Shown here one piece after another: positions 15,784-17,734 of a stretch of DNA of 40,858 nt. Location of the stretch: UHGV virus genome UHGV-0055581; one strand, given 5' to 3'. Position 1 is the stretch's first letter, and the number at the start of each line of letters is the position of its first letter. A model generated the notes under the pieces. It was not told where the DNA came from. It saw only the letters and a program-made list of their open reading frames with translations, and made no database searches. This stretch comes from a virus. The position numbers and the translations under genes are program-made.

Positions 15784-15968
15784 ACGCCACAATTCAAACG
15801 ATACCAGAGCTTCTTATCCAGACACGAGGCAATCAGACCGAAGTGGCGAGGATGCTTTCCTGCGCAAGAGGAACAGTGCTCAAGTACAACCGAGACAGCA
15901 AAGGCGAGCGTCACGTAATAGTTAACGGCGTCCTGATGGTCAAACAGGGCAAGAGGGGTAGACCATGA
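15780..15968 (+). CDS. ninH: NinH-like protein
   Basis: 62 aa; TIPELLIQTRGNQTEVARMLSCARGTVLKY resembles lambda NinH by recollection. Confidence 0.7.
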   Translation: MNATIQTIPELLIQTRGNQTEVARMLSCARGTVLKYNRDSKGERHVIVNGVLMVKQGKRGRP

Positions 15969-16588
15969 GACTCGAAAGTGTAGCTAAATTTCATTCGCCA
16001 AAAAGCCCGATGATGAGCGACTCACCACGGGCCACGGCTTCTGACTCTCTTTCCGGTACTGATGTGATGGCTGCTATGGGGATGGCGCAATCACAAGCCG
16101 GATTTGGAATGGCTGCATTCTGTGGTAAGCACGAACTCAGCCAGAACGACAAACAAAAGGCTATCAACTATCTGATGCAATTTGCACACAAGGTATCGGG
16201 GAAATACCGTGGTGTGGCAAAGCTCGAAGGAAATACTAAGGCAAAGGTACTGCAAGTGCTCGCAACATTCGCTTATGCGGATTATTGCCGTAGTGCCGCG
16301 ACGCCGGGGGCAAGATGCAGAGATTGCCACGGTACAGGCCGCGCGGTTGATATAGCAAAAACAGAGCAGTGGGGGAGAGTTGTTGAGAAAGAGTGCGGAA
16401 GATGCAAAGGTGTCGGCTATTCAAGGATGCCAGCAAGCGCCGCATATCGCGCTGTAACGATGCTAATCCCAAACCTTACTCAACCCACCTGGTCACGCAC
16501 TGTTAAGCCGCTGTATGACGCTCTGGTGGTTCAATGCCACAAGGAAGAGTCAATCGCAGACAACATTTTGAACGCGGTCACACGTTAG
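15965..16588 (+). CDS. Q: Late-gene antiterminator Q
   Basis: 207 aa; MRLESVAKFHSPKSPMMSDSPRATASDSLSGTDVMAAMGMAQSQAGFGMAAFCGKHELSQ... matches lambda Q by recollection. Confidence 0.95.
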   Translation: MRLESVAKFHSPKSPMMSDSPRATASDSLSGTDVMAAMGMAQSQAGFGMAAFCGKHELSQNDKQKAINYLMQFAHKVSGKYRGVAKLEGNTKAKVLQVLATFAYADYCRSAATPGARCRDCHGTGRAVDIAKTEQWGRVVEKECGRCKGVGYSRMPASAAYRAVTMLIPNLTQPTWSRTVKPLYDALVVQCHKEESIADNILNAVTR

Positions 16589-16630
16589 CAGCATGATTGC
16601 CACGGATGGCAACATATTAACGGCATGATA

Positions 16631-16700
16631 TTGACTTTTTGAATAAAGTTGGGTAAATTTGACCCAACGATGGGTTAATTCGCTCGTTGTGGTAGTGAGA
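16631..16700 (+). promoter_or_regulatory. Late promoter PR' with qut site
   Basis: TTGACT -35 and downstream sequence correspond to the lambda PR'/qut region as recalled. Confidence 0.7.
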
Positions 16701-16800
16701 TAAAAAGAGGCGGCGCTTACTACCGATTCCGCCTAGTTGGTCACTTCGACGTATCGTCTGGAACTCCAACCATCGCAGGCTGAGAGGTCTGCAAAATGCA

Positions 16801-16860
16801 ATCCCGAAACAGTTCGCAGGTAATAGTTAGAGCCTGCATAACGGTTTCGTGATTTTTTAT
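16801..16860 (+). terminator. tR' terminator (end of the short lambda 6S-type late leader transcript)
   Basis: ATCCCGAAAC...GTTTCGTGAT hairpin followed by TTTTTTAT, matching lambda tR' with one stem mismatch. Confidence 0.75.
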
Positions 16861-17410
16861 ATCTGCACAACAGGTAAGAGCATTAAAGAACTGGCAAAGA
16901 GCTTAACGGTCTGCGAAAGCATTTCTTAGTGGCACAACTGGCCGGTACAACTGAGTGCTCTTTCCGGTGTGGTGAATGCGCAGGCTGATGCGCGCAGGAG
17001 AGCTTCGGAAGAACAAGGTGCCTGTATACAAGCCGGAGATCAGCGCCGGCCACCACAGCCAAATCCACCCAGAGCAAAACCGTTGTTCATCCTTACCATT
17101 CCCTCAGTATTTTGGGCTACAACCCTCAGCCCATTTTTTAAAGCGTACTTCCACCAAGAACCAGACCTAACCAACTCATTGCTGACACTCTGTGGATACG
17201 GTTGTCTAGTGCGCTTTAAAAAAGAAAACCCAGCATCAATGGCTGGGCTTCGTGATATGAGCGGCATGTATTGTTGGCGCAATCCACGCCTGATTTGCTC
17301 ATGAATGCGGTCACGAACAAACCCGTTACAAATCAACCGTAACCCGGATTTGTTCAAGCGACCATATCTATAATTCCTAATTTGAACAGATCCCCTTCTG
17401 GGGGTAAGAC

Positions 17411-17734
17411 ATGAAGATGCCAGAAAAACATGACCTGTTAGCCGCCATTCTCGCGGCAAAGGAACAAGGCATCGGGGCAATCCTTGCGTTTGCAATGGCG
17501 TACCTTCGCGGCAGATATAATGGCGGTGCGTTTACAAAAACAGTAATCGACGCAACGATGTGCGCCATTATCGCCTGGTTCATTCGTGACCTTCTCGACT
17601 TCGCCGGACTAAGTAGCAATCTCGCTTATATAACGAGCGTGTTCATCGGCTACATCGGTACTGACTCGATTGGTTCGCTTATCAAACGCTTCGCTGCTAA
17701 AAAAGCCGGAGTAGAAGATGGTGGAAATCAATAA
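17411..17734 (+). CDS. S: Holin/antiholin S (dual start Met1-Lys2-Met3)
   Basis: [70 protein letters not shown]... matches lambda S by recollection. Confidence 0.95.

What the first reader, a model, noticed from the sequence alone, without database searches (positions are those of the whole stretch)
17215..17247. Minus-strand terminator-like hairpin inside the late leader between tR' and S
CCCAGC-ATCAATG-GCTGGG followed, on the minus strand, by a T-rich run (TTTTCTTTTTTAAA) has the form of a rho-independent terminator oriented against late transcription. No minus-strand gene lies upstream of it. It could terminate an antisense RNA that modulates late-operon or holin expression, or be a structural element of the late leader.
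Basis: seen in the sequence. Interest (0 to 1): 0.35.

Follow-up and report, generated by a model that had tools for sequence, protein, structure and literature searches.

The report
Backward-facing terminator upstream of phage holin
A small conserved hairpin just upstream of this phage's lysis genes has the form of a transcription stop signal pointing against late transcription; it most likely ends a short antisense RNA like those already seen in related prophages, so it is a modest, testable addition, not a new kind of element.

Summary
On the minus strand, 17251-17225 folds into a 10-pair hairpin followed by CTTTTTTAAA (17224-17215), the form of an intrinsic terminator. On sequence alone it is only mildly unusual; its weight comes from conservation.

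- **Conservation:** the module AAAAGAAAAC-hairpin-CTTCGTGA recurs in HK620, HK633, HK022, HK97, P22, epsilon34, Sf101 and about 110 other prophage or viral loci (31 variants). The stem is kept through paired deletions. Lambda and BTP1 lack it as a clean ~26-bp gap.
- **Direction:** in 31 unrelated viral contexts, the neighbouring gene runs into the same motif from the T-run side in 24.
- **Leftward RNA:** the holin-proximal DNA is partly homologous to STnc6010, a published leftward ncRNA of prophage BTP1. STnc6010 starts 45 nt upstream of the holin and, with no hairpin, runs 320 nt. Here such an RNA would end after about 135-160 nt. The region folds better, and covaries with G.U pairs, on the minus strand.
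- **Rival:** in P22 lytic infection the abundant plus-strand RNA P22E ends inside this hairpin. No strong leftward promoter is predicted.

Best reading (about 0.5): a leftward terminator closing an antisense RNA, at the meeting point of a convergent RNA pair. It is a new member of a known kind.

The parts
17225..17251 (-). Terminator stem-loop. 5' arm GAAGCCCAGC is 17251-17242, loop CATTGAT is 17241-17235, 3' arm GCTGGGTTTT is 17234-17225. The core G+C stem is 17229-17234 / 17242-17247.
   Evidence: Conserved with paired-indel stem variants in 31 sequence variants.
17215..17224 (-). T-rich tail CTTTTTTAAA after the stem. Together with the TTTT inside the 3' arm it gives UUUUCUUUUUU.
   Evidence: The A-tract AAAAGAAAA(A)C is present in every hairpin-bearing leader obtained without imposing it.
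17252..17374 (-). Inferred body of a leftward antisense RNA of about 135-160 nt. The 5' end is not mapped: either ~17374, by homology with the BTP1 STnc6010 start, or ~17354, from the second promoter candidate. Consensus helices: 17263-17290, and 17292-17303 paired with 17312-17323. An invariant GAACAAATCC lies at 17346-17355.
   Evidence: - Homology to STnc6010: 78% over 64 nt.
- Fold of 17217-17374: minus strand -59.5 kcal/mol, z = -4.99; plus strand -44.1, z = -2.24.
- Consensus fold and pair counts.
- Coordinates.
The transcript itself is inferred, not shown.
17361..17389 (-). Weak candidate leftward promoters. P2 has -35 CTGTTC (17389-17384), a 17-bp spacer and -10 TATGGT (17366-17361). 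The BTP1-like P1 has hexamer TCAAAT at 17385-17380.
   Evidence: own weighted scan; coordinates. Neither reaches the 9-of-12 threshold of the standard scan. P1 is placed by alignment with the STnc6010 5' end.
17135..17233 (+). Homologue of the P22 plus-strand small RNA P22E. It is a conserved spacer module between the upstream plus-strand terminator and the hairpin. A covarying closing helix runs AAAGCG...CGCTTT, and the A-tract follows it.
   Evidence: P22E sequence from PMC13397905 Table 2. It maps to P22 (L191) 825-925 on the plus strand and aligns to window 17135-17233.
17114..17139 (+). Plus-strand terminator-like hairpin GGGCTACAACCCTCAGCCC followed by ATTTTTT. It converges on the finding from the left.
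   Evidence: The identical sequence is annotated 'late transcription terminator; tQ' in HK620 record AF335538. Coordinates.
17411..17734 (+). Holin gene S (107 aa, lambda S type), the first late gene downstream of the leader.
   Evidence: Annotated as holin in HK620 and HK633.
16631..16659 (+). Late promoter pR' (TTGACT, 17-bp spacer, TAAATT). A lambda-type 6S/tR' segment follows it.
   Evidence: Window 16590-16884 is 98% identical to lambda 44511-44805. HK620 annotates pR' and qut at the same place.

Best explanation
The hairpin with its T-run is a functional rho-independent terminator for leftward transcription, that is, transcription against the late operon. Transcription would start at a weak promoter in the ~40-60 bp just upstream of the holin start codon. 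It would run leftward through the structured leader and stop at 17224-17215, giving a structured antisense RNA of about 135-160 nt. The stop also keeps this transcription out of the adjacent spacer module and the pR'-qut-tR' module.

The arrangement is a convergent pair. A plus-strand terminator (17114-17139) and a plus-strand leader RNA module (the P22E homologue, 17135-17233) approach from the left, and the antisense RNA approaches from the right.

**Shown:** the hairpin, its conservation, its terminator form, and the minus-strand bias of the structure.
**Shown only in relatives:** a leftward RNA (BTP1) and a plus-strand RNA (P22).
**Inferred:** that a leftward transcript is made here, that it ends at this hairpin, and any regulatory effect on S.
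For: 1. **Terminator form only on the minus strand.** There are 10 pairs followed by UUUUCUUUUUU. The plus-strand tail is CUUCGUGA.
2. **Selection on the stem.** Among 31 variants, the stems CCCAGC/GCTGGG, CCAGC/GCTGG and CCCGC/GCGGG differ by paired deletions. By my reading of the listed variants, three form G.U only on the minus strand and one only on the plus strand. Mean folding energy is -12.0 (minus) against -10.2 kcal/mol (plus).
3. **Direction of use elsewhere.** The same A-tract-plus-hairpin motif occurs in 31 distinct unrelated viral contexts. The gene on the T-run side runs into the hairpin in 24 of them. Vibrio phage PVA1 is one example.
4. **A leftward RNA in a relative.** STnc6010 is annotated on the minus strand at 386640-386959 of strain D23580, between Q and the holin of prophage BTP1. 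The annotation rests on RNA-seq, with the start site taken from Hammarlof 2018 (PMC6333337). The BTP1 leader is homologous but lacks the hairpin, and its RNA runs 320 nt into antisense tRNA sequence. The window matches STnc6010 at 78% over 64 nt.
5. **Structure favours the minus strand.**
   - The consensus fold of 25 diverse leaders is -29.65 (minus) against -20.62 kcal/mol (plus).
   - 98.7% of cells are paired, and 4 pairs show changes on both sides.
   - The covariation score is 0.201 against 0.145 in shuffles (0 of 500 reach it); slid controls give ~47% paired.
   - The minus-strand structure holds 122 G.U cells and no A.C cells.
   - The window RNA alone gives z = -4.99 (minus) against -2.24 (plus).
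6. **A known precedent.** Convergent sRNAs downstream of pR' are an established class in lambdoid prophages (PMC4104026). PasA is encoded antisense between an esterase gene and the holin ('> < >' in PMC8550237 table S6). PasC sits at a homologous site, but in E2348/69 an IS element now follows it.
Against: - **No convincing promoter.** No sigma-70 site reaches 9 of 12 on the minus strand between the hairpin and S. The candidates score 6-8 of 12 and differ between leader types.
- **STnc6010 is weak evidence.** It was not among the four BTP1 sRNAs confirmed by northern blot. I could not read the start-site table or its expression values.
- **No leftward RNA in P22 lytic infection.** 99.8% of phage small-RNA reads fall in ten loci. 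None is a minus-strand RNA to the right of the hairpin. The most abundant cytosolic one, P22E, is on the plus strand and ends in the hairpin loop (PMC13397905).
- **The element is dispensable.** Lambda and BTP1 lack it.
- **The strand-bias evidence is partly circular.** The structure was predicted on the strand where G.U is allowed. The plus-strand consensus also has 36 G.U cells. The sequences are related and mosaic.
Confidence: 0.5

Rival explanations
1. The hairpin acts on the plus-strand late leader RNA. It would be the 3' boundary, either a protective hairpin or a processing site, of a stable leader-derived small RNA. That RNA is the P22E family: a closing-helix domain, then the A-rich AAAAGAAAA linker, then this hairpin. 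The A-tract could be a protein-binding (for example Hfq ARN-type) or RNase E site, not a template for a U-tail.
For: - P22E is a 101-nt plus-strand RNA and the most abundant P22 small RNA in infected cells (2582 RPM). It spans exactly the spacer between tR' and the hairpin and ends in the hairpin loop (PMC13397905). It maps to P22 (L191) 825-925 and aligns to window 17135-17233.
- The spacer module accompanies the hairpin in 29 of 30 representative leaders.
- Its closing helix covaries: GCGC, GCAC, GCGCCCUA/UAGGGCGU and GCACUCUA/UAGAGUGC. Five of 14 consensus pairs change on both sides on the plus strand, against 1 of 12 on the minus strand.
- The late leader is certainly transcribed rightward.
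Against: - The reported P22E lacks the 3' arm, so the hairpin is not intact in the detected species.
- No U-tail follows the hairpin on the plus strand, so it cannot end transcription there.
- The consensus energies for the spacer are nearly equal on the two strands, -10.0 against -8.7 kcal/mol.
- The same motif elsewhere is used in the T-run direction in 24 of 31 contexts.
- The hairpin persists when the spacer is replaced (L219).
- The paper places P22E 48 nt from gene 13. I find 179 nt, so its end coordinates need checking.
Confidence: 0.3
2. The hairpin is a relic or hitch-hiker: a terminator left by a lost leftward moron, or simply part of a mosaic 'boundary sequence' spread by recombination. 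It would have no present function in this phage.
For: - The Q-S gap is a known insertion hotspot. Leaders here carry tRNA genes, HNH-type ORFs or other inserts.
- Lambda and BTP1 do without the hairpin.
- Some copies are damaged: HK022 and L300 have mismatches, and P22 has a shortened stem.
- CUS-3 annotates this region as a 'boundary sequence'.
Against: - The hairpin is retained across leaders that are only ~70-77% identical around it.
- Stem length changed by paired deletions on both arms three separate ways. Loops vary freely while stems stay paired.
- Presence or absence is all-or-none, not gradual decay.
Confidence: 0.12
3. A chance inverted repeat next to an A-rich run.
For: Terminator-like sites are common (3.5 expected per 3.5 kb). 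The hairpin's own z-score is only -2.69.
Against: The conservation and the compensatory stem variants across about 110 loci.
Confidence: 0.02

Closest known systems
STnc6010, ncRNA of prophage BTP1 (Salmonella Typhimurium D23580; Canals et al. 2019, PMC6333337)
   Same: - Same locus and orientation: minus strand, between antiterminator Q and the holin, starting ~45 nt upstream of the holin ATG.
- Its first ~125 nt are homologous to the leader type that carries the hairpin in MG40, HK022 and others.
- The window matches it at 78% over 64 nt.
   Different: - BTP1 lacks the hairpin, so STnc6010 is 320 nt long and runs antisense into two tRNA genes.
- The window's promoter-proximal hexamer differs (TCAAAT against TTGAAT).
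- STnc6010 rests on RNA-seq and a start-site map only, with no northern blot.
Anti-sRNAs AgvB, AsxR and EcOnc03 of EHEC lambdoid prophages (Tree et al. 2014, PMC4104026; Rfam RF02702 and RF02703)
   Same: They are encoded downstream of pR' and convergent to late transcription. They end in a rho-independent terminator and form convergent pairs with a plus-strand RNA.
   Different: - They are 51-60 nt long with a conserved 42-nt 3' domain that has no detectable similarity here. Rfam gives no match at E <= 10, and blastn finds only 7-8-nt words.
- They lie between a moron and the nanS-p type ORF, not directly upstream of S.
PasA and PasC sRNAs of EPEC prophages (Pearl Mizrahi et al. 2021, PMC8550237; Zhu et al. 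2026 preprint)
   Same: - PasA is encoded antisense ('> < >') in the gap directly upstream of the holin gene. PasC sits at a homologous site, with an IS element now downstream in E2348/69.
- They are ~80-85 nt long.
- The terminator has the same design, an A-run followed by GCCAGC...GCTGGC on the plus strand.
   Different: - No sequence homology beyond the generic terminator form.
- The holin family is different (class II).
- They are Hfq-dependent and validated by northern blot, whereas nothing is validated here.
P22E, plus-strand small RNA of phage P22 (Naaz et al. 2026, PMC13397905)
   Same: It is the RNA immediately to the left of the same hairpin in P22, and its 3' end lies in the hairpin loop. 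The window has a homologous module at 17135-17233.
   Different: It is on the opposite strand to the T-run. It was detected in lytic infection only, and its function and end formation are unknown.
Lambda late-leader terminators and 6S RNA (pR'-tR'), and the lambda/P22 antisense RNAs paQ/a23 and oop
   Same: They are terminator hairpins and short RNAs in the Q-S region of lambdoid phages. P22 a23 and its terminator are annotated in BK000583. That lambda has tandem rightward terminators after pR' is from my own knowledge (Luk and Szybalski 1983).
   Different: The late-leader terminators act rightward and are overridden by Q. paQ/a23 lie inside Q / gene 23. Lambda itself lacks the hairpin studied here.

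Membership tests
Rho-independent (intrinsic) terminator | G+C-rich stem of 5-10 bp with a short loop | tested here: met
   10 pairs (5 G-C) with a 7-nt loop, -14.4 kcal/mol on the minus strand.
Rho-independent (intrinsic) terminator | U-rich tract immediately 3' of the stem on the transcribed strand | tested here: met
   UUUUCUUUUUU on the minus strand. The plus strand has CUUCGUGA, so the feature is met leftward only.
Rho-independent (intrinsic) terminator | Transcription actually arrives from upstream and stops there | not testable with these tools
   The evidence is indirect: a leftward RNA in homologous BTP1 DNA, and use of the same motif in the T-run direction in 24 of 31 other viral contexts. 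No expression data exist for this phage.
AgvB/AsxR anti-sRNA family (Rfam RF02702, RF02703) | Match to the family covariance models or to the conserved ~42-nt 3' domain | tested here: not met
   No Rfam match at the gathering threshold or at E <= 10 over 16550-17450. blastn against AgvB, AsxR and EcOnc03 finds only an 8-nt word.
AgvB/AsxR anti-sRNA family (Rfam RF02702, RF02703) | Encoded convergent to pR' transcription in the moron region, with its own terminator | tested here: met
   The orientation and position between tR' and S are met. This is a resemblance in arrangement only.
PasA/PasC sRNAs | Sequence homology to PasA or PasC of E2348/69 | tested here: not met
   blastn finds only 7-nt words. 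The sequences were read from NC_011601.
STnc6010-type antisense leader RNA | Homologous DNA on the minus strand between Q and the holin | tested here: met
   78% identity over 64 nt to STnc6010 nt 20-82. The block GAACAAATCC...TTTGTTCGTGAC is shared.
STnc6010-type antisense leader RNA | Leftward promoter and start site ~45 nt upstream of the holin ATG | tested here: inconclusive
   The window has TCAAAT-TAGGA-A where BTP1 has TTGAAT-TAGGA-A(+1). Both are poor sigma-70 matches, and none passes the standard scan.
Structured RNA under selection (minus strand) | Conserved base pairs with compensatory changes, beyond controls | tested here: met
   98.7% of cells are paired; 4 pairs change on both sides; covariation 0.201 against 0.145 (0 of 500 shuffles reach it); slid controls ~47%. 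Caveat: the structure was derived from the same related sequences.
Protein-coding gene on the minus strand | Conserved ORF with a known domain | tested here: not met
   No Pfam match for the 34-aa or 151-aa minus-strand ORFs. By eye, the 34-aa frame ends at different points in different relatives (sequences); this was not computed.

The most novel reading that the evidence does not exclude
Classical lambdoid phages (P22, HK97, HK022, HK620, epsilon34 and many prophages) share an unannotated convergent RNA pair in the late leader, meeting at this hairpin. One member is a structured antisense RNA of ~140-160 nt. It starts within the holin's translation-initiation region, carries an invariant GAACAAAUCC segment, and ends at this hairpin. 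The other is the plus-strand P22E-type RNA. The antisense RNA would keep leaky lysis-gene expression off in lysogens or tune lysis timing. It could do this by pairing with the S leader or by transcriptional interference, and it might also act in trans on host mRNAs.
Probability: 0.25. Interest if true: 0.65.

Novelty: new member of a known kind. Interest (0 to 1): 0.4.

Why it matters
The Q-S leader controls when a temperate phage kills its host, and it is where toxin and other moron genes are inserted. If the hairpin ends a leftward RNA, then well-studied phages such as P22, HK97, HK022 and HK620 carry an overlooked antisense transcript over the holin leader. Lambda and BTP1 would serve as natural deletions of its terminator. 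That would make a simple question testable: does antisense transcription guard lysogens against leaky lysis genes, or set lysis timing? If the plus-strand reading is right instead, the hairpin defines the end of the most abundant small RNA made by P22 in infected cells. Either way the element deserves an annotation, which it lacks in the P22, HK620 and RefSeq E. coli records I looked at.

Tried and rejected
- **Rfam.** The whole window at gathering thresholds gave nothing. The leader at E <= 10 gave only chance-level partial matches to rydB, isrJ and others.
- **Known sRNA families.** I found no homology to AgvB, AsxR, EcOnc03, PasA or PasC, so I did not file the element in those families.
- **Coding hypothesis.** The minus-strand ORFs have no Pfam match, and by eye the short frame is not conserved. 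I rejected it.
- **tRNA.** None is present in the window.
- **First collection scan.** The pattern was too loose; 115 of 120 hits were chance. I replaced it with a tighter pattern. That pattern imposes the A-tract and the right flank, so A-tract conservation must be judged only from the BLAST- and holin-derived sets.
- **Holin-based genome scan.** It returned mostly lambda contamination in unrelated assemblies; only about a dozen loci were useful.
- **Standard promoter scan.** It found no minus-strand site between the hairpin and S. My weighted scan gave only weak, type-specific candidates.
- **Literature.**
  - A full-text search for the hairpin sequence found nothing.
  - The BTP1 prophage paper had no sRNA data.
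  - The supplement holding the start-site table (Hammarlof 2018) is not held.
  - STnc6010 expression values fell in a truncated file.
- **Helix choice.** I first assumed the helix GAACAAATCC / GGATTTGTTC. The consensus fold prefers GGUUUGUUCGUG / CAUGAGCAAAUC, and double changes in P22-type leaders fit the latter. The single-sequence fold of the window still uses the former, so the two may be alternatives.
- **GcvB-sponge idea.** CAACAAUACA at 17267-17276 resembles the AgvB seed mimic. It occurs only in this leader type and is partly paired in the predicted fold, so I did not pursue it.

Full report
**What the window is.** The region is the late-control region of a lambdoid phage.
- Q lies at 15965-16588 and pR' at 16631-16659.
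- The holin S is at 17411-17734, followed by R and Rz.
- The leader is mosaic. Window 16590-16884 is 98% identical to lambda 44511-44805, which covers pR' and the 6S/tR' segment.
- The next ~530 bp, up to S, are 99.8% identical to HK620 and HK633.
- The same 531 bp occur in 108 of 5426 complete E. coli genomes. The rows listed in the search output show no annotated feature under the match.

**The observation.**
- On the minus strand a 10-pair stem with a 7-nt loop (17251-17225) is followed by CTTTTTTAAA (coordinates).
- Taken alone it is not remarkable. The region holds 9 terminator-like sites against 3.5 expected.
- The hairpin's folding z-score is -2.69 on the minus strand and -1.65 on the plus strand.
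- The plus-strand tail is CTTCGTGA, so only leftward termination is plausible.

**Conservation.**
- Aligning the DNA upstream of the holin shows the same module, AAAAGAAAA(A)C-stem-loop-stem-CTTCGTGA. It is present in HK620, HK633, MG40, ST104, epsilon34, SI8, SF11, HK022 and Sf101, in P22, and in Citrobacter and Kluyvera prophages.
- The surrounding sequence is only 70-77% identical in these relatives.
- A pattern scan of viral contigs brought the total to 111 instances and 31 distinct variants.
- Loops vary freely while stems stay paired.
- The three main stems, CCCAGC/GCTGGG, CCAGC/GCTGG and CCCGC/GCGGG, differ by deletions on both arms.
- By my reading of the listed variants, three form a G.U pair only on the minus strand and one only on the plus strand.
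- Lambda, BTP1 and several tRNA-bearing leaders lack the element cleanly. Lambda reads TTTTACACA-TGAC-CTTCGTGA where P22 reads TTTTACACA-AAAGAAAACCCAGAACTATGGCTGGG-CTTCGTGA.
- The hairpin is therefore a discrete, selected but dispensable unit.
- It carries no annotation in the curated P22 record or in the HK620 record, which marks only a rightward terminator 'tQ' at the position of window 17114-17139.

**Which direction does such a motif work in?** The motif AAAGAAAACCCAGC-loop-GCTGGG, without the lambdoid right flank, occurs in 41 other viral contigs. In 31 distinct contexts, the nearest ORF on the T-run side points into the hairpin in 24, away from it in 3, and is absent in 4. In Vibrio phage PVA1 a 36-nt stretch 97% identical to the MG40 copy lies in tandem with a second terminator of the same orientation. 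Elsewhere, then, this design is used as a terminator in the T-run direction. The lambdoid leader is the exception, because no coding gene lies upstream on that strand.

**Is there leftward transcription to terminate?**
- No strong promoter is predicted. My weighted scan finds only weak candidates. One has TCAAAT at 17385-17380. The other is CTGTTC-17-TATGGT with its -10 at 17366-17361.
- The literature gives an indirect answer. Canals et al. 2019 annotate STnc6010 in the P22-like prophage BTP1. It lies on the minus strand at 386640-386959 of D23580, between Q and the holin. [quoted passage not shown]
- In the BTP1 phage record this corresponds to 37245 down to 36926. The start is 45 nt upstream of the holin ATG.
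- The BTP1 leader belongs to the lambda type, which in MG40, HK022 and Sf101 carries the hairpin. BTP1 lacks it, and its RNA runs 320 nt into antisense tRNA sequence.
- The window's minus strand matches STnc6010 at 78% over 64 nt.
- By homology, a leftward RNA here would start near 17374, or near 17354 from the second candidate. It would end at the hairpin after about 135-160 nt.
- STnc6010 was not among the four BTP1 sRNAs confirmed by northern blot. I could not read the start-site table.

**Structure of the region between hairpin and S.** I aligned 25 diverse leaders in minus-strand orientation.
- RNAalifold predicts two helices and the terminator. In window coordinates the helices are 17312-17323 paired with 17292-17303, and 17263-17290.
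- 98.7% of cells are paired, and four pairs change on both sides.
- The covariation score is 0.201 against 0.145 in shuffles (0 of 500 reach it). Partners slid by 1-3 columns give 41-48% paired.
- The helices contain 122 G.U cells and no A.C cells. They would therefore be mismatched on the plus strand.
- The consensus energy is -29.65 kcal/mol on the minus strand against -20.62 on the plus strand.
- For the window alone the 158-nt RNA folds at -59.5 (z = -4.99) on the minus strand and at -44.1 (z = -2.24) on the plus strand.

Three cautions apply:
- The structure was predicted on the strand where G.U pairs are allowed.
- The plus-strand consensus has 36 G.U cells of its own.
- The sequences are related.

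I read this as suggestive of a structured minus-strand RNA, not as proof.

**The rival.** A 2026 small-RNA survey of P22 lytic infection reports ten phage loci holding 99.8% of phage reads.
- The most abundant cytosolic one, P22E, is a 101-nt plus-strand RNA.
- It maps to P22 (L191) 825-925. That is the spacer between tR' and the hairpin, and its 3' end lies in the hairpin loop. This is 179 nt from gene 13, not the 48 nt the paper states.
- The window has a homologous module at 17135-17233.
- The module accompanies the hairpin in 29 of 30 representative leaders.
- It has a closing helix with many compensatory versions. Five of 14 consensus pairs change on both sides on the plus strand.
- No minus-strand RNA to the right of the hairpin is among the ten loci.

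A plus-strand role, as the 3' boundary of this leader-derived RNA, is therefore a serious alternative. Three points count against it as the main role:
- The detected P22E lacks the hairpin's 3' arm.
- No U-tail exists on that strand.
- The hairpin persists where the spacer has been replaced (L219).

The lack of a leftward RNA in lytic cells is also what one would expect if heavy Q-modified rightward transcription suppresses a weak convergent promoter. STnc6010 was seen in a lysogen. That is inference.

**Synthesis.** The hairpin sits where two RNA modules meet. One is a plus-strand module on its left, detected in P22. The other is a minus-strand module on its right, detected in BTP1. This is the convergent-pair layout that Tree et al. 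2014 described downstream of pR' in EHEC prophages. PasA shows a similar layout upstream of the holin in EPEC.

The element is not a sequence member of AgvB, AsxR or Pas. Its closest relative is STnc6010. I put about 0.5 on a working leftward terminator, about 0.3 on a primarily plus-strand role, and about 0.1 on a functionless relic. The first two are not mutually exclusive.

**Verdict.** This is a new, unannotated member of a known kind of arrangement, of moderate interest, and it is directly testable because natural hairpin-less relatives exist.

Noticed in passing
window 16870-17062 (core 16954-17057): A ~190-nt stretch begins CACAACAGGTAAGAGCATTA just after the lambda-type tR'. Its core 104 nt are 99% identical in unrelated virulent siphophages (Klebsiella phage vB_Kpn_ZC2, Escherichia phage swi2). 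There it lies in a gene-free gap just upstream of a tRNA gene. Lambda has a diverged copy. It has complementary ends (GGTAAGAGCA / TGCTCTTTCC), several G+C hairpins and a CCACCA-like tail. Only weak Rfam hits lie nearby (tmRNA_permuted, E = 0.03). It may be an undescribed structured RNA or a tRNA-associated mobile module.
   Followed up: partly
window 17135-17233 (+); P22 locus L191 825-925: The spacer between the rightward terminator and the hairpin is a conserved module with a strongly covarying closing helix. It corresponds to P22E, the most abundant cytosolic small RNA in P22-infected cells. The paper places its 3' end 48 nt from gene 13; I find 179 nt.
   Followed up: partly
loci L260, L216, L272, L283 (viral contigs), just right of the hairpin: Some leaders carry a plus-strand ORF inserted immediately after the hairpin, beginning [16 protein letters not shown]. 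It replaces most of the leader. It looks to me like an HNH-type homing endonuclease, but I ran no domain search.
   Followed up: no
loci L136, L139, L141 (genome contigs); BTP1 L348 36889-37041: Hairpin-less leaders of the lambda type carry one or two tRNA genes between Q and the holin. Lambda's own leader looks to me like a remnant of such a tRNA 3' end (…CACAACCCAAACTGAGCCGTAGCC).
   Followed up: no
window 16590-16885 / 16885-17410: There is a mosaic junction inside the leader. A lambda-type pR'-6S-tR' segment is joined to an HK620-type leader that has its own rightward terminator (17114-17139). The window therefore has two rightward terminators in tandem before S. HK620 has ~200 bp more at the junction.
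   Followed up: partly
window 17267-17276 (minus strand CAACAATACA): A C/A-rich run inside the second helix of the putative antisense RNA resembles the GcvB-target mimic of AgvB (ACAACAATAT). It is present only in this leader type and is partly base-paired in the predicted fold.
   Followed up: no
window 17312-17324, 17346-17355 and 17385-17395: The segment GGGTTTGTTCGTG (minus strand) can pair with either GAACAAATCC (17346-17355) or CATGAGCAAATC (17292-17303). A third copy of the motif (GAACAGATCC, plus strand) lies next to the stem-loop in front of the S start codon. The S leader may therefore switch between alternative structures.
   Followed up: partly
Genome-contig loci L137-L164 and others: Many 'relatives' of the holin found in assemblies of unrelated bacteria (Bacillota, Flavobacterium, Streptomyces-like and others) are 98-100% identical to lambda. 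They sit on short contigs, so I take them to be lambda DNA contamination, not prophages.
   Followed up: no
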